Below, in pieces: positions 1-23,518 of a stretch of 47,808 bases of DNA. Position 1 is the first letter of the stretch. The number at the start of each line of letters is the position of its first letter. A program made the translations under genes and the position numbers. The notes under the pieces were generated by a model. The model was given only the letters and a program-made list of their open reading frames with translations, was not told the DNA's origin and ran no database searches. Source of the stretch: a virus (lineage: Duplodnaviria; Heunggongvirae; Uroviricota; Caudoviricetes); IMG/VR virus record IMGVR_UViG_2778261394_000006, positions 1-47,808 of that record. The stretch is one strand, 5' to 3'.

Positions 1-954
1 ATGACTAGCCGCCGCATTGCCTATGCTTATTTCGATCCTGTATGGGATAAAAGCATACACAGTACAGCACAGTTAGTTCGTACAAGTGTTGGACCATTAG
101 AATATCAAGAAGAAATGAAAGATCATCTCATTTGTCCCCAATGTTATGAGCCACTTAATCGTATACCATCAGAGTCAAGTATAACGATTATGACTGACGG
201 GCGAGAAGCTCTCTTCCGCCACTACCCAAATCCAAATGCTCCTTTTTGTTTGTTGAGAAGCGGAGCTATTATCGGGAAACGCTATTCTAGTGAAGAAGAA
301 GCCCAAAAAGCTGTTAGCGACAATGATGTCATTATCATATCCGGATTCATGCAGGAACGACCAGAACTTGTATATCGTGATAATACAGATTCTTCCGCCA
401 CTCGAACGGAAATGTACTTTGAAAGTAAAAATGGGGTATTTGTTGAAATTCCCATCTCTCGTCATCAAGGTGAAACATTCAATCTGCCCAGTAAGATAAC
501 AAGCGTGCAAGCTCTATGTACTAACTTTCAAGAAAACTACTATAAAGAGATATTTATCACCACTGGCACTAGTCTCGCTCGCAGTTATATTTTTTGCGAT
601 GCATTAAAAAGTATTTCTGATATCCGCTCTGAACAAGAAGAACCGGGGTTTTATTTTGGTGAAATAAGTTCAATAGAACAACATACTAATCATTCAACCG
701 TATGGTTAAAATTAAAAGGTTCTTGTTATTATCCTGATTTCAGAGTGCGAATAGAAAATAACACTGCAATTTCTCGTGGTATAACGGACGAAAATGCAAA
801 AAATAGAATTATTATTTTTTACGCTCCAATATCATCTGTCGGCATGGGATACTGGACACATATTTTGAAATGGGGGGAAGTAGGTTTACTGGCTGAAAAA
901 CACAAAGATTTTTTACTTGACGATTATAACAAGAAACACACTAGTAACTGTTGA
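1..954 (+). CDS. Hypothetical AT-rich cargo protein beyond the tail-fibre module; may be truncated at the window edge
   Basis: 317-codon ORF starting at base 1; AT-rich compared with neighbouring tail genes; opposite strand to the late operon; CxxC motif (ICPQC); no family recognised. Confidence 0.5.
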   Translation: MTSRRIAYAYFDPVWDKSIHSTAQLVRTSVGPLEYQEEMKDHLICPQCYEPLNRIPSESSITIMTDGREALFRHYPNPNAPFCLLRSGAIIGKRYSSEEEAQKAVSDNDVIIISGFMQERPELVYRDNTDSSATRTEMYFESKNGVFVEIPISRHQGETFNLPSKITSVQALCTNFQENYYKEIFITTGTSLARSYIFCDALKSISDIRSEQEEPGFYFGEISSIEQHTNHSTVWLKLKGSCYYPDFRVRIENNTAISRGITDENAKNRIIIFYAPISSVGMGYWTHILKWGEVGLLAEKHKDFLLDDYNKKHTSNC

Positions 955-4995: not shown

Positions 4996-5618
4996 TTTTG
5001 AATCACCGTTGTTGCATAGGAATAAATAAAAGGGAGTTTTACATATTTCTGGTCAATGGCATCTTTCAGAAAATAGCCTATACCATCACCATATTCTGGT
5101 ATCTGAATAGAAAAAACACTGTCCGATACAGTCACGCTCACATCAAAAGTGTGCTGCAACGGCGGGTCTATTCCGTTTTTCCCATGAATGAACCGTGCCA
5201 CACGGCGCTTTAACCAGTCAATGCAGAAATGCGAACCGTCAGCCTTATAAAAATTCCAAGTTAATATTCGCTTGAAATAATCATCCGGAACATACGATGC
5301 CTGCCCCGGAACATAATTCCGCATTGCCGCATAAGGGATTGTATTGTATTCAATGGTATCGTATGCGCCGCGTGCAATAGCCTCCTCGGAAACCTGTAGT
5401 AAAGGCCTTTCAACGCCATAAATCCCGAGAGCAATCCAGTCCAGCAATTGCCCGGTTATTGATTCCGATGTCCAGCATGGCAATGCCAGATTGTTGAGTG
5501 AATCGAGGTATTCCTGAGCAATTTCATTGTATGCATCAAAGAACGCAACAACATTCGGATCATCTCTGTACTGCACAAACGGATAAGCAGGGAGAATTTT
5601 TTCAGTCAGATATTGCAT
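4992..5618 (-). CDS. Putative baseplate/tail protein (P2 gpI-like position)
   Basis: ORF 4992..5726 trimmed to internal Met so it overlaps the upstream J-like gene by only 17 bp; synteny. Confidence 0.45.
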   Translation of the reverse strand: MQYLTEKILPAYPFVQYRDDPNVVAFFDAYNEIAQEYLDSLNNLALPCWTSESITGQLLDWIALGIYGVERPLLQVSEEAIARGAYDTIEYNTIPYAAMRNYVPGQASYVPDDYFKRILTWNFYKADGSHFCIDWLKRRVARFIHGKNGIDPPLQHTFDVSVTVSDSVFSIQIPEYGDGIGYFLKDAIDQKYVKLPFIYSYATTVIQK

Positions 5619-6828
5619 ACTTGTTAACTTGAACCTGTGATACCACCGTCGAAAAATAGGAATAGGTATCGCCATAAACCAGGCTTGTGTCTTTTGCCGG
5701 AGGAACAATATGGCCATTAATGCCAATGCTCACACTGATTGTTGAGATCAACGTCGCATCAACCAACAATCTGACGGAACTGGTAAAAATATCCTGGATT
5801 CGCAGCAGATTTATCGGGTGTCCGACTTCAATAGAATTGATGTAATCAGCAACGTTTTGCTGCACAGCCATAGCAATACCCGCCGGATCAACATAATCAT
5901 CAGATACAGTGTTCCAGGTGATTAGCACCATGACGTTTTGTGATGACGGGATAACGAACGGCACCTGATAAACATCTGGCGAAACGGTTATTGAAACCGT
6001 GCGTTTTTCCACTGCCGCACCAGATGGATTGCTAACATCGTTGGTCAGTTTCGAAATATCCGGTACAGATTTGTAAATAGCATAAGCCACATCATACGGA
6101 TCACCGCCACCAACAACCGCAACCCATTTCCCCAGCGACGACTGCCGGAAAGAAATCAGGTTTTCTCGCACACCGCTTACTGATTTGAGCATCGCTTTAA
6201 AGCAATCCGGTGTTCCCTGCACACCAAACATGCCGGACTCCATGACTTCGGCGCGGTAAGATGCCCACGTTTGCGCCTCCTGACCTGGCATCCCTGCGGT
6301 AAGGTTCGTGCATTTTACAGGCTGATCTTTGGGTACCGATGTAATGACCTGCGTTACGGTTCCTTCCGGTACAGCCCATGAGCCTGACGTTGTGGCCACA
6401 CAGTAGACTGGCTCAGTCTGCCCGCTTTCCGGCACCACCGTATCGCGGGAAACTGCATACTGGTAGTTGCCGTCACCGACAACAAATCCTTTAGGGATAC
6501 CAAACCCCGGCAACGCCTCAAACACCACGTATACCGCCGTATTTGTACTTAATCCCTTCTGTGCTCCATAAATGTTTCCGAGTTGCATCAGTAACGGAAT
6601 ATTTGCGCCGTATGGGCTTACGGAGTTAATAAGGTCCACCCGCGCCTGGTCTATTAATGCCAGCGCCCCGACAGCCGTGCTGGCAAGGTCTGTAATAAGC
6701 CCCGCCGGAAGGTTGGCTGTATATCCAGGTACTTTTTCGGCAACTCTGGTGATAAGATTCGCGAGCAAATCATTGGGTGGCGTAGGCTGCGCCCCCGCAC
6801 TGGTCATAGTAATTGGTATTTCTGACAT
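5602..6828 (-). CDS. Baseplate J-like protein
   Basis: 408 aa; size and position typical of baseplate J family; synteny with V/W-like genes. Confidence 0.6.
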   Translation of the reverse strand: MSEIPITMTSAGAQPTPPNDLLANLITRVAEKVPGYTANLPAGLITDLASTAVGALALIDQARVDLINSVSPYGANIPLLMQLGNIYGAQKGLSTNTAVYVVFEALPGFGIPKGFVVGDGNYQYAVSRDTVVPESGQTEPVYCVATTSGSWAVPEGTVTQVITSVPKDQPVKCTNLTAGMPGQEAQTWASYRAEVMESGMFGVQGTPDCFKAMLKSVSGVRENLISFRQSSLGKWVAVVGGGDPYDVAYAIYKSVPDISKLTNDVSNPSGAAVEKRTVSITVSPDVYQVPFVIPSSQNVMVLITWNTVSDDYVDPAGIAMAVQQNVADYINSIEVGHPINLLRIQDIFTSSVRLLVDATLISTISVSIGINGHIVPPAKDTSLVYGDTYSYFSTVVSQVQVNKYAISD

Positions 6829-6841
6829 ATTTACTCCATTA

Positions 6842-6866
6842 AAAAACCCGCTTTCGCGGGTTTTTT
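6842..6866 (-). terminator. Rho-independent terminator (hairpin CCCGCGAAAGCGGG with flanking T/A runs, bidirectional)
   Basis: aaaaaacccgctttcgcgggtttttt immediately downstream of the moron CDS. Confidence 0.6.
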
Positions 6867-6868
6867 AC

Positions 6869-8029
6869 TTATTCAACCTCTTCTAAACTGCTCACTCTGG
6901 ACCCTCGGCGGAAATTATCATCATTTTTAACATACTCGTATGAATCCAGAATCAAACCAGATATGCGAAGTATATCTTCCGGATTAGTTATATGTATCCT
7001 TTTACCATCCGTATCAAGTCGAGCTCGTCTTATTTCATTCAACTGAACTTCACTAAGCGAAATAGGTAATGTTATAAATGAAGATTTTTTATCATAAAAT
7101 CTTAACAGCCATCTATTAGTTTTACCATTCAATAGTACACCAAAATATGACTCAGTATCTTTATATTCTATATTATCTTCTGTTTGTATGATTTGTTTTA
7201 CCCTTTCAAATAGTTCCAATTCTTTGGCTGTGGTTATTATGTTGGGGTTTTCTTCATCAACAATGGCGTTATTAACTTGTGTATCCGTTGCATCATTTTC
7301 TTTAGTTTGCTCTACCGGTTGTGTAGATAGCCCGGAAACCACCATTGCGCTAACAGCGCGCTCAACGGCCTGTTTAACTAATGGAGTCACGAACTCAAGA
7401 AATCTCTGATTAAGTTGTCTCTCAATATTTGAACGACTAGCAACATATCGAACAAACTCCAGATCAACTTCACGAAGACTAGAACTGATTGTTTTAGTAA
7501 ATGAATTCAAATAAACACTTTCTTCAGCCAGTGTCCGCAAAGCCTCTGGTTTGAATTTATCATAACGAAAACGAAATAATTGTGTAATATCGGAGTGAGT
7601 TAGAGAATCCATTCTTATTTTTAAAAACGGCGTTGAATCCATTATGTTTTTTTGTTTCAAATCCGTAAAAAAACGCCATTCAACACCATTTGTAATGGCT
7701 GATATAGTAACTTCCGGTGTTGAATTAAAATATCTTGATAGCTGTGGGCAGTGATTATCAATTTGTTCTGAAAACGATTTCGCCTCAATGAACATCACAG
7801 GAACATCATGACAAAATAAAGCGTAATCAACCCGTTCATTAGCCTTAACCCCGGGGAAGTCAGCACTATACTCAGCTTTGACTTTTCTTGGATCATACGG
7901 AGTAAAACCAAGAATATCTAGAAATGGCATAATGAGTGCTTGTTTTGTCGTTTCTTCAGTTGTACAAAACACCCCCATTTTTGCAACATGCTCTGTGTGT
8001 ATTTTTAACTTATTTGCAAAATTTTCCAT
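6869..8029 (-). CDS. Moron: restriction-endonuclease-like protein (N-terminal PD-(D/E)xK, HsdR-N-like motif), C-terminal domain unknown
   Basis: Start at second Met (MENFANKL) preceded by GGAGGAG; motif EETTKQALIMPFLDILGF...VDYALF...FIEAK; markedly AT-rich; own upstream AT-rich region and downstream terminator. Confidence 0.6.
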   Translation of the reverse strand: MENFANKLKIHTEHVAKMGVFCTTEETTKQALIMPFLDILGFTPYDPRKVKAEYSADFPGVKANERVDYALFCHDVPVMFIEAKSFSEQIDNHCPQLSRYFNSTPEVTISAITNGVEWRFFTDLKQKNIMDSTPFLKIRMDSLTHSDITQLFRFRYDKFKPEALRTLAEESVYLNSFTKTISSSLREVDLEFVRYVASRSNIERQLNQRFLEFVTPLVKQAVERAVSAMVVSGLSTQPVEQTKENDATDTQVNNAIVDEENPNIITTAKELELFERVKQIIQTEDNIEYKDTESYFGVLLNGKTNRWLLRFYDKKSSFITLPISLSEVQLNEIRRARLDTDGKRIHITNPEDILRISGLILDSYEYVKNDDNFRRGSRVSSLEEVE

Positions 8030-8178
8030 GCTTGTCTCCTCCATGGTAACAATATGTATTTTGCAAATCCGAAATAATATATGTCAATATGCTCCAGCTT
8101 AGAAAATTACTCGCCCCCCTAAAATATCTCTCTACAGCACTCCAAACCAAGGTAAAAGTTTTATCATAAAACTGTGAT

Positions 8179-8526
8179 TCATACCGGCACCTGCGTCCGG
8201 TAACTGGTCCCATTAAAAAACACAACATCGATGTTATAGGTGGGGTTATCTGCTCCATCTACCTTTGAAATTGCCAGTGATGCAAAATACCCAGCAAACT
8301 GTTGCTGAACCATGTTCACATAGTAGTCTGGGTAAATCTGCTGCACGATGCACTGCTGTGCAGGAATACCGTAATTCGCGTAAAACGGCGACTCCCCCAA
8401 TCCCAGCTTTAACGTCTGAATGAGCGTCGTCAGCCAGCCGTAGGAGAAATCACCGTTGGCGTCAGATTCTACTGCAACCCATTTTTTGTTGCCGTTCGCG
8501 TCGGTGACGCGGCCCCATGTTCTCAT
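8179..8526 (-). CDS. Hypothetical tail/baseplate protein (gpW-size, 115 aa)
   Basis: ORF with phage-typical composition between the V-like gene and the moron; position only. Confidence 0.4.
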   Translation of the reverse strand: MRTWGRVTDANGNKKWVAVESDANGDFSYGWLTTLIQTLKLGLGESPFYANYGIPAQQCIVQQIYPDYYVNMVQQQFAGYFASLAISKVDGADNPTYNIDVVFFNGTSYRTQVPV

Positions 8527-8684
8527 CGTGCCCCCATCACTTTAACTAACTCTGTCAGTACTGGTGAAAAGGCAAATGCTAAAGCTACGAGTGCAGCGGT
8601 GTAATACATGCGTCGTAAGGTATTGCTTTTTGCCACTAATTTTAAGGCTTTCACAATCCAGTCTCCTCCGCTAAAATTAATCAC
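8523..8684 (-). CDS. Small hypothetical protein with hydrophobic C-terminus
   Basis: GTG start preceded by GGAGG; overlaps next ORF start by 4 bp; weak. Confidence 0.3.
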   Translation of the reverse strand: MINFSGGDWIVKALKLVAKSNTLRRMYYTAALVALAFAFSPVLTELVKVMGAR

Positions 8685-8741
8685 GGAAGACCTCCAAACA
8701 TACGTAATCATCCCTTGCGTATTCAAGGTGAGAAACAGAAA

Positions 8742-8767
8742 CCCCCGACTGGGCCAACAGTCGGGGG
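8742..8767. terminator. Hairpin cccccgactg/cagtcggggg with T-rich flanks (possible bidirectional terminator)
   Basis: Perfect 10-bp inverted repeat downstream of the V-like gene. Confidence 0.45.
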
Positions 8768-8808
8768 TTTCGTTTTATGGTTAGAATTTAAAGTGAAATG
8801 AACCGGTA

Positions 8809-21320: not shown

Positions 21321-22134
21321 GTTTGCCCTTCTCCGTTAAAAATTCGTCGGGTAGTTTCTGAGGGGCGTAGATCGGCAGAGCATCGCAACTGCAATAAACC
21401 TCCTCCCCGGCAGCAGTGATTTCGTCATAAAAACCATATACGGGCTTAATAAGCCCCTGCTCCAGCGCCCACGAATCGCGGAGGAGATAAATTTTCTCGT
21501 CGCGCTCTTTGTGGTCCTGTCGGTATTTGTAGCCCGGACGCCGCCAGTTAGAATGCCAGCGCAGAGCAATCGCACCACTCTGAACAGCCAGCAGATACTT
21601 AACGTTGCTCGCCAGCTTATGTCCCTGGTCAATTGCCACCCGGCGACTGATAAAATCCATATCCTTCACGGACTTCTGAAAACCGGACTTCACTTCCCGG
21701 CGATCAATTTCGCTCACCCCGTCAGGCGGAATGGACGTAACCCATCCCTGAAAACGCTGTATGGTTTTCTCGATAGCCTGTTCGCGGTTGAGTTTTATCA
21801 GGTTGGCACTGGCGAAAATTCGCCTGTCGAGTTCCTTACGAAACTCAGGTTTCAGTTTTTCAACAGTGATTTTTTTAGGGCCATCAGGAGGCTGATCCCG
21901 TAATGCCCCGCCGTCGATGACAAGACGGCTGTAGATAGCGGTGAGATGTTTTCTGGCTACGGTATCATCAGGGGTTTCTCGCTGAGCGGCTACACGGAGT
22001 TTCCGGCACCATTCGAGCAATGATTTTTCGCTATCCCACCCGTGATTTACGTAGTAGTTAACGGCATCCGTCAGAACCTCATACAGCGTCCTGATCCGTT
22101 TCTTCTTCCTCACCGCCCGGCTGGAAATTGCCAT
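21301..22134 (-). CDS. Putative head morphogenesis protein (Mu F-like position)
   Basis: ORF after portal; start uncertain (overlaps portal 3' end). Confidence 0.45.
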   Translation of the reverse strand: MAISSRAVRKKKRIRTLYEVLTDAVNYYVNHGWDSEKSLLEWCRKLRVAAQRETPDDTVARKHLTAIYSRLVIDGGALRDQPPDGPKKITVEKLKPEFRKELDRRIFASANLIKLNREQAIEKTIQRFQGWVTSIPPDGVSEIDRREVKSGFQKSVKDMDFISRRVAIDQGHKLASNVKYLLAVQSGAIALRWHSNWRRPGYKYRQDHKERDEKIYLLRDSWALEQGLIKPVYGFYDEITAAGEEVYCSCDALPIYAPQKLPDEFLTEKGKREFNRA

Positions 22135-23518
22135 CAGGCGTCTCCTGCTTCGGTGGTTCATAATTCGCCAGCGCGTCCACATCAATGATGAGTGGAGCTT
22201 CGCCATAGGTTTGCGTGGCATTAACAAGGCTTGCCAGCCATTCAGTGACGGCGGCACGGTTTTCAGGATCAACCTGTGGCGACACGGCAGAGAAAAGTGC
22301 TATCGCCTGTTGAATCACTTTACTGTCGCTTTCCCGGCGTTTGTCCGGCGACTCCTCCACCAGCTCCTGCCATGTCGCGGTAAATTCACGTCGCCACTGG
22401 TAAAACGTGGTTTTATAGTCATCAGTTATGATGTCCGGGTAATCATTTTTCAGCGACTGATAAAATTCCTCGTTCCAGGCGATGTACTGCACCAGGCGTT
22501 CGAAATAATCCATCACAGGTTCAATCTGCTGGCGTACACCATCGATATACTGGCTGATAGCTTTCGAATCCTCAGTTCCTTCACCGAAACCATTCGAGAA
22601 AGCCTCCTCCTTGATGAGAATCGCGGGAACATCGCTACCTGATGCAATATCAGAAATAATGTTGTCGCGGGCGGCATTTAGCGCGCCATCGATGTTTTGT
22701 AAATTCAGCGAGGTAACGTCCTCATCCTTCCCGATACTAAGCACACCTTTATTTTTTGCCTCTTTGACATTTTCCCTTTTTCGTCCCGTGGCGGCAGCCA
22801 TGATCCCGTCAAGTTTCGAACCATACTGCACAACTTTAGCCACCAGTACGCCTGCCTTCTGGCTGACGAGATCATTCGCCTCCATCGTATTGATATAGGA
22901 TTTCAGGGAATAAAGAACACGCTGAAACACGCTTCGCCCGGTGAATCCGAACGATGAACTCTGAAACTCCAGATAAATCGGTGTGCCATTGAAAATTTTC
23001 AGTGTGCGTGACGGATGCCAGTCTTTTCCGCCAATCTTCAGCTTTTTATTGGCTTCCTGGAAAAACGGGCTGTTTGGGTTCTGGTCAGTCACCATCGAAC
23101 CAGAAGCGTTCAACGGGTCCCACGCGTTGATATACACATCATCTTCTGTCAGTCCGAATGTCGGAAGCGGCTCACGACATGGAACACTGTCGGTGCCCAC
23201 GCCGATCGCTGCGGCACCGTAGCAACGAGACAGAAAAAACAGATTTTTAATCTTCTCGTTAACCTTCATACGTTCCCATACCTCCTGGAAACGCCGCACA
23301 ACCCGCTCGTCAGGGTCTGTCTCCACGTTGTACTGACGCGGCTTACACATCGCCATAAGTATGGGTTTTTCGACAAGTTTTCCGCCCAGAGGATGGAATT
23401 GCCACAGCAGCTTACACAATTCATAGCCAATATCGGTTCCCGGCTGAATTTCTTCAGCCTCAAGAATACGCATCAGTGCTGAACCGAGGCCGCCAGTAAT
23501 CTCGATCTCTGCCATCAA
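22079..23518 (-). CDS. Portal protein
   Basis: 479 aa, acidic C-terminus; immediately downstream of terminase large subunit. Confidence 0.7.
   Translation of the reverse strand: MMAEIEITGGLGSALMRILEAEEIQPGTDIGYELCKLLWQFHPLGGKLVEKPILMAMCKPRQYNVETDPDERVVRRFQEVWERMKVNEKIKNLFFLSRCYGAAAIGVGTDSVPCREPLPTFGLTEDDVYINAWDPLNASGSMVTDQNPNSPFFQEANKKLKIGGKDWHPSRTLKIFNGTPIYLEFQSSSFGFTGRSVFQRVLYSLKSYINTMEANDLVSQKAGVLVAKVVQYGSKLDGIMAAATGRKRENVKEAKNKGVLSIGKDEDVTSLNLQNIDGALNAARDNIISDIASGSDVPAILIKEEAFSNGFGEGTEDSKAISQYIDGVRQQIEPVMDYFERLVQYIAWNEEFYQSLKNDYPDIITDDYKTTFYQWRREFTATWQELVEESPDKRRESDSKVIQQAIALFSAVSPQVDPENRAAVTEWLASLVNATQTYGEAPLIIDVDALANYEPPKQETPDGNFQPGGEEEETDQDAV

What the first reader, a model, noticed from the sequence alone, without database searches (positions are those of the whole stretch)
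6842..8178. Self-contained AT-rich moron inside the baseplate operon encoding a nuclease-like protein
A 386-aa ORF (6869-8029) interrupts the contractile-tail gene run between the W-like and J-like genes. Its composition is much more AT-rich than its neighbours. It has its own AT-rich upstream region (8045-8178), a strong GGAGGAG ribosome-binding site, and a perfect terminator hairpin immediately downstream (6842-6866). The N-terminal 110 residues carry a motif I associate with type I restriction R-subunit N-terminal (PD-(D/E)xK) domains: E-x-TK...IMPFL..LGF...VDYALF...FIEAK. The C-terminal 270 residues match nothing I recognise. Tail-operon morons with nuclease domains are typical carriers of single-gene defence systems.
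Basis: partly seen in the sequence, partly recalled or inferred. Interest (0 to 1): 0.75.

Follow-up and report, generated by a model that had tools for sequence, protein, structure and literature searches.

The report
Prophage moron encoding a stand-alone nuclease
A 1.3-kb AT-rich gene cassette sits inside the tail genes of an E. coli Rac-type prophage and encodes a widespread but unstudied phage nuclease, which in other prophages usually lies next to the repressor gene and is therefore probably a defence against other phages, though nobody has tested this.

Summary
Window 6837-8167 (minus strand) is a discrete 1,331-bp cassette. It carries a promoter-like site, a GGAGGAG ribosome-binding site, a 386-aa ORF (8029-6869) and a 12-bp hairpin terminator. 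It has the lowest GC of any stretch that size in the window (0.357; GC3 0.26 against 0.49-0.59 in neighbours).

It lies exactly between the 115-aa gene upstream and the baseplate J gene. About 70 related E. coli prophages and phages Rac-SA53/pPE4 hold other cargo in that slot, so it is not a tail part.

The protein has three regions:
- an HsdR-type PD-(D/E)xK nuclease domain, with D68, E82-x-K84 and Q96xxxY100 invariant in 60 diverse homologues;
- a helical linker;
- a confidently folded C-terminal domain of YdhG/YjbR/T4 MotA "double-wing" fold, with no Pfam match.

It has no helicase motor and no HsdM/S or methylase partner, so the RefSeq name "type I restriction endonuclease" is misleading. 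The family (PHROG 4225) is very large and spans many phyla. It recurs right after prophage repressors, or in other moron slots.

The best reading is a lysogen-expressed, methylase-independent defence nuclease. This is inferred, not shown. It has no PADLOC match, and I found no paper on it.

The parts
6837..8167 (-). Whole moron cassette (1,331 bp): the DNA absent from Rac-SA53 and pPE4 at this position
   Evidence: blastn breakpoints at 6836 and 8168. GC 0.357, the lowest 1,331-bp stretch of the window.
8058..8087 (-). Sigma-70 promoter-like site, TTGACA-18-CAAAAT
   Evidence: Consensus scan, 10 of 12 matches. Function not shown.
8036..8042 (-). Shine-Dalgarno GGAGGAG, 6 nt upstream of the ATG
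   Evidence: Read directly from the sequence.
6869..8029 (-). ORF of 386 aa (WP_023568477.1), labelled 'type I restriction endonuclease' by RefSeq; member of PHROG 4225
   Evidence: PHROG 4225 full-length match, E 3e-149.
7550..8029 (-). Residues 1-160: HsdR-type PD-(D/E)xK nuclease domain (E25/E26, K29, D68, E82-x-K84, Q96xxxY100)
7325..7549 (-). Residues 161-235: three long helices forming a linker or possible oligomerisation region
   Evidence: AF2 secondary structure, pLDDT about 70-80. No family match.
7256..7324 (-). Residues 236-258: variable, disordered acidic/polar linker
   Evidence: pLDDT below 50 for residues 234-252. Length-variable and gap-rich in alignment A2.
6920..7255 (-). 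Residues 259-370: C-terminal alpha+beta domain of YdhG/YjbR/MotA-CTD ('double-wing') fold; invariant T266, T267, E270, D291, Y295, R310
6840..6867 (-). Intrinsic-terminator hairpin: 12-bp stem, GAAA loop, A-run and T-run on either side, so potentially bidirectional
   Evidence: RNAfold -17.4 kcal/mol; sequence.
8179..8526 (-). Upstream flank: 115-aa conserved tail-module gene (the 'W-like' gene by position only)
   Evidence: PHROG 7986, unknown function. No Pfam or PDB hit. Conserved next to the slot in relatives.
5602..6828 (-). Downstream flank: baseplate J/gp47-family gene. Its GGAG ribosome-binding site starts right after the cassette.
   Evidence: Pfam Baseplate_J 8e-8; PHROG 6 baseplate wedge 5e-38.

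Best explanation
The cassette is a classic phage moron: an accessory gene with its own promoter and terminator, dropped into a variable cargo slot of the baseplate operon of a Rac-type E. coli prophage.

Its product is a stand-alone endonuclease that needs no methylase. It joins an HsdR-type PD-(D/E)xK catalytic domain, through a helical linker, to a C-terminal 'double-wing'-like domain. That domain most likely binds DNA, or a feature specific to foreign DNA.

I propose that the lysogen expresses it from its own promoter here, and from the repressor operon in most relatives. I propose that it cuts incoming foreign DNA (superinfecting phages, possibly other mobile elements) in the manner of a type IV or other solitary restriction enzyme, which would protect both the lysogen and the prophage.

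Shown: the cassette boundaries, the domain make-up, the intact catalytic motifs, the lack of any partner gene, and the recurrent position next to repressors.

Inferred: expression in the lysogen, nuclease activity, DNA binding by the C-terminal domain, and the anti-phage role. During lytic growth the internal terminator would have to be read through. The prophage does encode a Q-type antiterminator, but read-through is also inferred.
For: **Accessory, not structural**
- Flanks are 95% identical to Rac-SA53 and pPE4, but those phages carry 2-3 opposite-strand genes there instead, including an AntA antirepressor.
- About 100 of 5,426 complete E. coli genomes have this tail module. About 25-31 of them carry this gene. 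In the sampled rows the rest carry antirepressor, Rha, LprI-family or hypothetical genes, and no sampled slot is empty.

**Foreign composition.** The cassette is the lowest-GC stretch of its size in the window.

**Catalytically competent nuclease**
- Pfam HSDR_N and HSDR_N_2 match above their cut-offs.
- D68, E82, K84, Q96 and Y100 are invariant across 60 homologues that go down to 26% identity. They align onto the motifs of a real HsdR.

**C-terminal domain.** It is confidently folded and most similar to YdhG-like, YjbR/DUF419 and T4 MotA C-terminal domains. From my own knowledge, not checked here: MotA's C-terminal domain binds DNA, and YjbR was described as having a double-wing DNA-binding motif.

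**Lysogeny-linked context**
- The gene sits 10-31 bp downstream of, and co-directional with, CI/LexA-like or RacR-like repressors in Klebsiella phage KpF5, Citrobacter koseri, Providencia and E. coli STEC384. In E. coli PCN061 the gap to racR is 170 bp.
- It lies between repressor and integrase in Streptococcus phage IPP25.
- In 77 species-representative loci, the upstream neighbour is co-directional in 58. It carries an HTH_3 domain in 12, Peptidase_S24 in 6 and ImmA/M78 in 6. No partner gene or methylase recurs.
- A C. koseri prophage remnant keeps essentially the repressor and this gene.

**Other moron slots.** It lies between Q and the lysis genes, between tail chaperone and tape-measure genes, and after HicAB in a Porphyromonas phage.

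**Scale and company**
- The family has more than 8,000 clusters at 90% identity and occurs in more than 578 IMG/VR contigs.
- The same prophage carries another recognised defence pair (beta/cII) in a second AT-rich island.
- A Q-type antiterminator is present.
Against: - There is no experimental evidence for any member that I could find.
- There is no hit to any of the 5,027 PADLOC v2 models.
- It is unexplained how a constitutively expressed nuclease without a methylase would spare the host chromosome.
- The promoter is only a consensus match.
- In this window the gene points the same way as the tail genes, so it would also be transcribed late in lytic growth.
- The family is rare in E. coli (33 of 5,426 genomes).
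Confidence: 0.42

Rival explanations
1. It is an abortive-infection effector rather than a direct restriction enzyme. The nuclease is held inactive in the lysogen. The C-terminal domain senses a phage protein or a small molecule, and the nuclease then degrades host and phage DNA alike, killing the infected cell.
For: - There is no methylase or other self-protection partner.
- The invariant polar and acidic residues of the C-terminal domain (T266, T267, E270, D291, Y295, R310) suit a ligand or protein pocket.
- Genes next to repressors in other prophages, such as lambda rexAB and BTP1 bstA, act by abortive infection (my own knowledge).
Against: - No recognised sensor domain is present (CARF, SAVED, STAND and the like); Pfam finds nothing beyond the nuclease domain.
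- The closest folds include a DNA-binding domain, the MotA C-terminal domain.
- Sequence alone cannot separate this from the best explanation.
Confidence: 0.2
2. It is a nuclease that serves the prophage's own life cycle. It might process DNA during lysogeny control, recombination, or competition at induction. On this reading its link to repressors reflects regulation, not immunity.
For: - It is tightly coupled to repressor genes in many unrelated prophages.
- PHROG places it under 'DNA, RNA and nucleotide metabolism'.
Against: - It is dispensable. Most prophages with the same tail module lack it.
- It moves between at least five kinds of slot, including late-operon morons, and stands alone in a Lactococcus chromosome.
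- A core life-cycle function would not be expected to have such patchy presence and such deviant composition.
Confidence: 0.13
3. It is a selfish, free-standing homing-type endonuclease. On this reading it inserted between two conserved phage genes and spreads by cutting the cognate site in related co-infecting phages.
For: - The insertion is precise, intergenic and AT-rich, between conserved structural genes.
- Homologous coding sequences lie in different slots with unrelated flanks: homology to the E. coli SW070917 copy is limited to the coding sequence.
- PD-(D/E)xK homing enzymes exist (my own knowledge).
Against: - No empty allele of the slot was seen. Relatives hold other cargo of at least about 1 kb.
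- The dominant context is the lysogeny module under repressor control, and the gene is kept in a decayed prophage remnant.
- It is single-copy per genome.
- Members at 26-37% identity keep the full three-part architecture across phyla. That points to selection for a cellular function.
Confidence: 0.1
4. It is a non-catalytic decoy or restriction-alleviation factor: an HsdR nuclease-domain look-alike that interferes with host type I restriction.
For: - It resembles only the N-terminal domain of HsdR.
- Rac prophages already carry a restriction-alleviation gene, ralR.
Against: - All catalytic residues are invariant, which a decoy would not need.
- It has no similarity to the HsdR C-terminal domain (Pfam EcoR124_C). 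My assumption, from memory, is that this is the part that contacts the methylase.
Confidence: 0.04
5. It is a structural or assembly component of the contractile tail.
For: Only its position and orientation inside the baseplate gene run.
Against: - It is absent from Rac-SA53 and pPE4 (deposited as complete phage genomes) and from about 70% of E. coli prophages with the same tail module.
- Homologues sit mostly outside structural modules.
- It has a nuclease fold.
Confidence: 0.01

Closest known systems
Nuclease domain of type I restriction enzyme HsdR (EcoR124I, PDB 2w00; putative HsdR fragment 3h1t)
   Different: It has no SF2 translocase motor, no C-terminal domain of the HsdR type, and no hsdM or hsdS nearby. 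At 386 aa it is far shorter than the roughly 800-1,100 aa of HsdR.
N-terminal nuclease domains of type IIL/IIG single-chain enzymes (DrdV 7lo5, BpuSI 3s1s)
   Different: Those enzymes carry a methyltransferase and a target-recognition domain in the same chain. This protein has neither.
Type IV (modification-dependent) or other solitary restriction endonucleases; COG2810 'predicted type IV restriction endonuclease'
   Same: A solitary nuclease with no cognate methylase, carried by a mobile element. JGI gives this label to two family members. A 2012 PD-(D/E)xK survey groups COG2810 with HSDR_N (PMC3424549).
   Different: No known modified-base reader domain (such as SRA or EVE) is present. The C-terminal domain is a YdhG/YjbR/MotA-like fold with no known role in reading modifications. 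Dependence on modification is untested.
T4 MotA C-terminal domain / E. coli YjbR / YdhG-like (DUF1801) 'double-wing' fold
   Different: Only 9-14% identity and no sequence-profile match. The conserved residues are specific to this family.
Repressor-adjacent prophage immunity genes (lambda rexAB, Salmonella BTP1 bstA)
   Same: Same genomic logic: an accessory gene just downstream of, and co-directional with, the lysogeny repressor. That these known genes are expressed in lysogens and act as defences is from my own knowledge.
   Different: The proteins are unrelated. In this window the gene is not next to the repressor but in a tail-operon slot with its own promoter.
DefenseFinder 'FS_HsdR_like' (single-gene system from phage-inducible chromosomal islands, Fillol-Salom et al. 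2022). This is a lead from memory only.
   Same: It is reported as a single protein with HsdR-like similarity, carried by a mobile element of Enterobacteria.
   Different: I could not check it. The paper and the models are not available through these tools. None of the E. coli homologues I examined lies in such an island.

Membership tests
Type I restriction enzyme R subunit (HsdR) | N-terminal PD-(D/E)xK nuclease domain with the QxxxY motif | tested here: met
Type I restriction enzyme R subunit (HsdR) | SF2 ATP-dependent translocase (ResIII/SWI2_SNF2) plus C-terminal HsdR domains (T1R_D3, EcoR124_C) | tested here: not met
   No such Pfam hits in the 386-aa protein. A genuine HsdR scanned the same way shows all of them.
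Type I restriction enzyme R subunit (HsdR) | Encoded together with hsdM and hsdS | tested here: not met
   None is annotated in the window. No methylase or specificity subunit recurs among the immediate neighbours at 77 loci.
Phage moron (Hendrix/Juhala sense) | Present or absent at the same position among closely related phages | tested here: met
   Breakpoints at 6836 and 8168 against Rac-SA53 and pPE4. Alternative cargo sits in the slot in E. coli prophages.
Phage moron (Hendrix/Juhala sense) | Own promoter and terminator flanking the gene | tested here: inconclusive
   The hairpin with a T-run is clear (-17.4 kcal/mol). The promoter is a 10-of-12 consensus match only. There are no transcript data.
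Phage moron (Hendrix/Juhala sense) | Base composition differs from the surrounding genome | tested here: met
   GC 0.357 against 0.49-0.50; GC3 0.256; 0.13th percentile of the window.
PHROG 4225 'endonuclease' / COG2810-type HsdR_N proteins | Full-length profile match | tested here: met
   E 3e-149, residues 1-370 against profile positions 1-357 of 357. Full-length homologues occur in phages of at least 11 genera.
Known or candidate anti-phage systems in PADLOC-DB v2.0.0 | Match to any of the 5,027 models | tested here: not met
   No family at E up to 1.
DefenseFinder FS_HsdR_like | Match to the system's HMM or reference protein | not testable with these tools
   Models and paper are not available.
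Type IV modification-dependent restriction endonuclease | Solitary nuclease with no cognate methyltransferase | tested here: met
Type IV modification-dependent restriction endonuclease | Recognised modified-DNA reader domain, and cleavage that depends on modification | tested here: inconclusive
   The C-terminal domain is not a known reader fold. Activity cannot be tested here.
Free-standing homing endonuclease | Cassette-free ('empty') allele in close relatives that could act as the homing target | tested here: not met
   The sampled relatives whose match spans the slot all hold at least about 1 kb of other cargo there.
Contractile-tail baseplate component | Conserved across phages that share the tail module | tested here: not met
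   Absent from Rac-SA53 and pPE4 and from about 70 of about 100 E. coli prophages with the module.

The most novel reading that the evidence does not exclude
The family is a previously unrecognised single-protein immune system carried by temperate phages across many bacterial phyla. An HsdR-type nuclease is steered by a new kind of reader domain, a YdhG/YjbR/MotA-like fold with an invariant T-T-E-D-Y-R pocket. That domain would recognise a feature of foreign DNA, or a phage-made ligand, and so give restriction without methylation. Prophages would usually wire it into the repressor operon so that it is on only in the lysogenic state.
Probability: 0.3. Interest if true: 0.7.

Novelty: new variant of a known kind. 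Interest (0 to 1): 0.5.

Why it matters
If the inference is right, this is a very common prophage cargo gene whose function nobody has tested. It has more than 8,000 sequence clusters, hundreds of viral contigs, and hosts from Enterobacterales to Bacillota, Bacteroidota and Campylobacterota. It would be a compact way to restrict foreign DNA without a methylase.

Three things would follow:
- It would correct a systematic mis-annotation, since RefSeq calls these proteins 'type I restriction endonuclease'.
- It would give a function to a fold class (YdhG/YjbR-like) that is poorly understood.
- It would add the slot before baseplate J in Rac-type prophages to the list of cargo hot-spots that can be mined for defence genes.

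It is also easy to test, because the unit is one gene of 1.3 kb with its own signals.

Tried and rejected
**Sequence and family searches**
- PADLOC scan of the protein: no hit.
- NCBIfam: only a sub-threshold match to the nuclease part of a type I enzyme.
- Sequence and profile searches of the PDB with the protein, with alignment A2 and with the C-terminal domain: only chance-level hits such as haemagglutinin, chemoreceptor and DNA polymerase.
- Pfam scan of 27 C-terminal domains: nothing consistent.
- Longer homologues were checked for extra domains. Only one showed anything, a partial TerD match.
- The 'W-like' label for the 115-aa neighbour could not be supported by Pfam, PHROG function or PDB sequence search.

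**Structure searches**
- The afdb50 fold library was unavailable.
- BFVD gave only weak hits for the C-terminal domain: DUF5655, MotA and phage G proteins, none with E at or below 0.001.

**Literature**
None found a paper on this family.
- The DefensePredictor paper and its supplements do not mention this protein.
- Brenes & Laub 2025 and Fillol-Salom 2022 are not held in the library.

**Other checks**
- I looked for a chromosomal-island (PICI) context among E. coli homologues to test the FS_HsdR_like lead. All were in prophages.
- Rfam finds no RNA family in the cassette.

**Readings rejected**
- Structural tail protein.
- Genuine type I R subunit.
- Toxin-antitoxin pair, because no partner gene exists.
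Full report
**What is in the sequence**

The finding is on the minus strand. An ORF runs from ATG 8029 to a TAA stop codon whose last base is 6869, giving 386 aa. GGAGGAG (8042-8036) lies 6 nt upstream. An earlier in-frame ATG at 8044 sits inside that Shine-Dalgarno sequence, and RefSeq also starts the gene at 8029.

One base after the stop codon comes TAAAAAACCCGC-GAAA-GCGGGTTTTTTA (6867-6840). It has a 12-bp stem and folds at -17.4 kcal/mol. The consensus terminator scan missed it, apparently because the A and T runs pair and use up the T tail.

Upstream there is one good sigma-70-like match, TTGACA-18-CAAAAT at 8087-8058. It is only a consensus match.

**It is a discrete foreign insert**

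blastn against Escherichia phage Rac-SA53 and phage vB_Apl-pPE4 gives 92-97% identity on both sides. The homology ends at 6836 and resumes at 8168. The cassette is therefore 6837-8167, or 1,331 bp. It starts just after the stop of the 115-aa gene and ends just before the GGAG ribosome-binding site of the baseplate J gene.

Its GC is 0.357, against 0.49-0.50 for the tail module. It is the lowest 1,331-bp stretch of the whole 47.8-kb window (0.13th percentile). ORF GC3 is 0.256, against 0.49-0.59 in the neighbours.

**Where the window comes from**

The window is essentially identical to E. coli GmM062 (NZ_CM183653). It is a complete Rac-type prophage beside ompN and uspF. It carries:
- intR, xisR, ralR/RalA, recET, kilR and ydaS/T-like genes, plus hokD/sok;
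- a Q-type antiterminator (DUF1133 plus Phage_antitermQ);
- a contractile-tail module, with sheath PHROG 205, tape measure with transglycosylase, baseplate hub PHROG 196 and baseplate J.

It rests on position and size only.

**It is not a tail part**

In Rac-SA53 and pPE4 the same slot holds two or three opposite-strand genes: two hypotheticals and an AntA-family antirepressor.

Among 5,426 complete E. coli genomes, about 100 carry this tail module. About 25-31 of them carry this gene, at 99% identity or more. In the sampled rows the rest hold antirepressor, Rha-family, LprI-family or hypothetical genes. In the rows where the match spans the slot, the slot is never smaller than about 1 kb. So the junction between the 115-aa gene and J is a cargo hot-spot, and this gene is one of several interchangeable inserts.

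**The protein**

Pfam finds HSDR_N (8e-14) and HSDR_N_2 (1e-8), both above their curated cut-offs, and nothing else. PHROG 4225 ('endonuclease') matches over the full length at 3e-149. PADLOC v2 finds nothing.

An alignment of 60 homologues, reaching down to 26% identity, has these invariant residues in the N-terminal half: E25, E26, K29, P35, D57, K62, E65, D68, Y69, E82, K84, Q96, L97, R99 and Y100. A profile alignment to a genuine 978-aa HsdR places D68, E82-x-K84 and Q96xxxY100 on that enzyme's D...ExK...QxxxY motifs. The profile probability was low, because the template was a single sequence, but the E-value was 0.004. So the catalytic set of type I nuclease domains is complete and conserved.

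AlphaFold2 gives a confident model (mean pLDDT 85.8) with four parts:
- residues 1-160, nuclease domain, pLDDT above 90;
- residues 161-235, three long helices, pLDDT about 70-80;
- residues 234-252, disordered and length-variable;
- residues 259-370, a compact alpha+beta domain, pLDDT above 94.

The C-terminal domain has no Pfam or PDB sequence match. It has six invariant residues: T266, T267, E270, D291, Y295 and R310. From my own knowledge, not checked here, this fold group is the 'double-wing' DNA-binding fold. That makes DNA binding the first guess. The polar and acidic invariants would equally suit a pocket for a ligand or a flipped base.

**It is not a type I restriction subunit**

There are no motor domains and no C-terminal domain of the HsdR type. 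There is no hsdM or hsdS in the window, and none recurs among homologues' neighbours. The RefSeq product name is therefore misleading.

**Family and genomic context**

The family is very large. It has more than 8,000 clusters at 90% identity and 314 clusters at 50% identity with E below 1e-30. More than 578 IMG/VR contigs encode a relative.

Hosts include Enterobacterales, Pasteurellales, Acinetobacter, Beta- and Alphaproteobacteria, Campylobacterota, Bacillota, Bacteroidota, and metagenome bins labelled cyanobacterial, Synergistales and Thermoguttaceae.

The commonest context is striking.
- In Klebsiella phage KpF5, Citrobacter koseri, Providencia and E. coli STEC384, the gene lies 10-31 bp downstream of the lysogeny repressor, on the same strand. 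In E. coli PCN061 the gap is 170 bp. The repressor is of the CI/LexA-like HTH plus S24 type, or RacR-like.
- PCN061 and STEC384 both place the gene after a RacR-type repressor, and STEC384 sits at the Rac attachment site beside ttcA. So the gene occupies two alternative slots within this one phage type.
- In Streptococcus phage IPP25 it sits between repressor and integrase.
- In a Clostridium phage it sits after HTH regulators.

In 77 species-representative loci, the upstream neighbour is co-directional in 58. It carries HTH_3 in 12 cases, Peptidase_S24 in 6 and ImmA/M78 in 6. Downstream neighbours include tyrosine and serine recombinases. No partner gene recurs.

Other positions are also typical moron slots:
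- between antiterminator Q and the lysis genes, on the opposite strand;
- between the tail chaperone and the tape-measure gene, next to Bro-N genes;
- after hicAB, inside a Porphyromonas phage structural region.

Two further cases are informative. C. koseri keeps a decayed prophage remnant that is essentially the repressor plus this gene, in several genomes. A Lactococcus copy stands alone among housekeeping genes.

**Interpretation**

Several lines point to an accessory gene that is expressed in the lysogen and benefits the host-prophage pair:
- interchangeability with other cargo;
- foreign base composition;
- its own expression signals;
- repeated placement in the repressor operon;
- retention in a prophage remnant;
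- an intact nuclease active site;
- no partner gene.

The most economical function is defence against superinfecting phages or other incoming DNA by a solitary nuclease.

I commit to a direct, methylase-independent restriction mechanism in which the C-terminal domain supplies target recognition (confidence about 0.4). An abortive-infection variant, in which the C-terminal domain senses a trigger, is the main rival (about 0.2). Together, a defence role of some kind has a probability of about 0.6.

Non-defence rivals and my estimates:
- a nuclease serving the phage's own life cycle: 0.13;
- a selfish homing-type nuclease: 0.10;
- a restriction-alleviation decoy: 0.04;
- a tail component: 0.01.

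The unsolved problem for the leading model is how the host chromosome is spared.

The terminator in the middle of the tail operon would have to be read through in lytic growth. The prophage encodes a Q-type antiterminator, but read-through itself is an inference.

**Comparison with what is known**

It works like a solitary (type IV-like) restriction enzyme, or like the tethered nuclease of type IIG/IIL enzymes. Its position is like lambda rexAB or BTP1 bstA.

It is a member of PHROG 4225 and of the COG2810-type HsdR_N proteins. A 2012 survey of PD-(D/E)xK enzymes listed these with 'type IV restriction endonuclease (predicted)' (PMC3424549).

It fails the membership tests for HsdR. It matches nothing in PADLOC v2.

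From memory, DefenseFinder lists a validated single-gene system 'FS_HsdR_like', taken from phage-inducible chromosomal islands. I could not obtain the paper or the models. None of the E. coli homologues I examined lies in such an island. This check is the first thing to do, because it decides between 'new member' and 'new variant'.

**Verdict**

The moron and nuclease parts of the interpretation are supported. The defence role is plausible but unproven.

It is an interesting and cleanly testable candidate rather than a surprise, so I score interest at 0.5. For novelty I rate it as a new variant of a known kind: a solitary restriction-like nuclease with an undescribed C-terminal module.

Noticed in passing
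window 33245-34342 (+) and 34302-34880 (-): This is a second AT-rich island (GC 0.37-0.41). It carries a recognised defence pair. The 'beta' protein matches Pfam Beta_protein at 2e-52 and PADLOC PD-Lambda-2_C at 1e-41. The other gene matches the PADLOC 'cll' model at 2e-28. This is the gop-beta-cII type, so the prophage already carries at least one known defence system.
   Followed up: partly
window 1-954 (+): A 317-aa ORF with GC 0.377 and GC3 0.28 lies beyond the tail-fibre genes, at the prophage end next to host uspF. It has no Pfam or PADLOC hit. It is another uncharacterised cargo gene.
   Followed up: partly
window 8738-8771: A perfect 14-bp G+C-rich inverted repeat (GAAACCCCCGACTG...CAGTCGGGGGTTTC) lies between the small ORF 8523-8726 and the gpV-like baseplate gene. 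It looks like a terminator on both strands, in the middle of the tail operon.
   Followed up: no
Junction of the 115-aa gene and J in L001 (4249-6117), L002, and about 70 E. coli prophages: In relatives the same slot holds opposite-strand cargo: an AntA/AntB antirepressor, Rha-family regulators, LprI-family 'lysozyme inhibitor' proteins and hypotheticals. No slot spanned by a match was empty in the sample. This is a cargo hot-spot worth mining.
   Followed up: partly
L183 (E. coli PCN061) 7514-8704; L184 (E. coli STEC384) 7550-8704: In E. coli prophages with a RacR-type repressor (STEC384 is at the Rac attachment site beside ttcA), a 70-72% identical homologue sits directly after the repressor rather than in the tail operon. 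The same cargo therefore uses two alternative slots. The PCN061 copy abuts an IS1 element.
   Followed up: yes
L007-L010 (Citrobacter koseri) 5278-7152: A decayed prophage remnant between purB and phoPQ keeps essentially only the CI-like repressor and the nuclease gene, in several C. koseri genomes. This suggests the pair has been domesticated by the host.
   Followed up: partly
L069 702-4636 (Synergistales metagenome bin): A family member lies about 125 bp downstream of a complete type I HsdR, which has HSDR_N, SWI2_SNF2, T1R_D3 and EcoR124_C domains. It is the only case seen next to a real restriction subunit.
   Followed up: no
window 22079-23518 (-): RefSeq labels this 479-aa protein 'anti-CBASS protein Acb1 family'. 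It sits where the portal gene should be, and it matches Pfam Phage_portal_3 at 1.9e-12. The label is probably an annotation error.
   Followed up: partly
window 32533-32857 and 46074-46660: Two type I toxin-antitoxin loci typical of Rac/Qin-type prophages: hokD with sok RNA (Rfam, 119.8 bits) and ralR with RalA RNA (218 bits).
   Followed up: no
P0146 and P0288 (homologues): P0146 has an internal duplication of the catalytic core segment (visible in alignment A2). P0288 carries a partial TerD domain at its N-terminus. Either could be real or an assembly or gene-calling artefact.
   Followed up: no
L002 (PP818812.1, 'Actinobacillus phage vB_Apl-pPE4'): This phage, recorded with Actinobacillus pleuropneumoniae as host, is about 95% identical over the tail module to E. 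coli Rac-type prophages. The host assignment looks doubtful.
   Followed up: no
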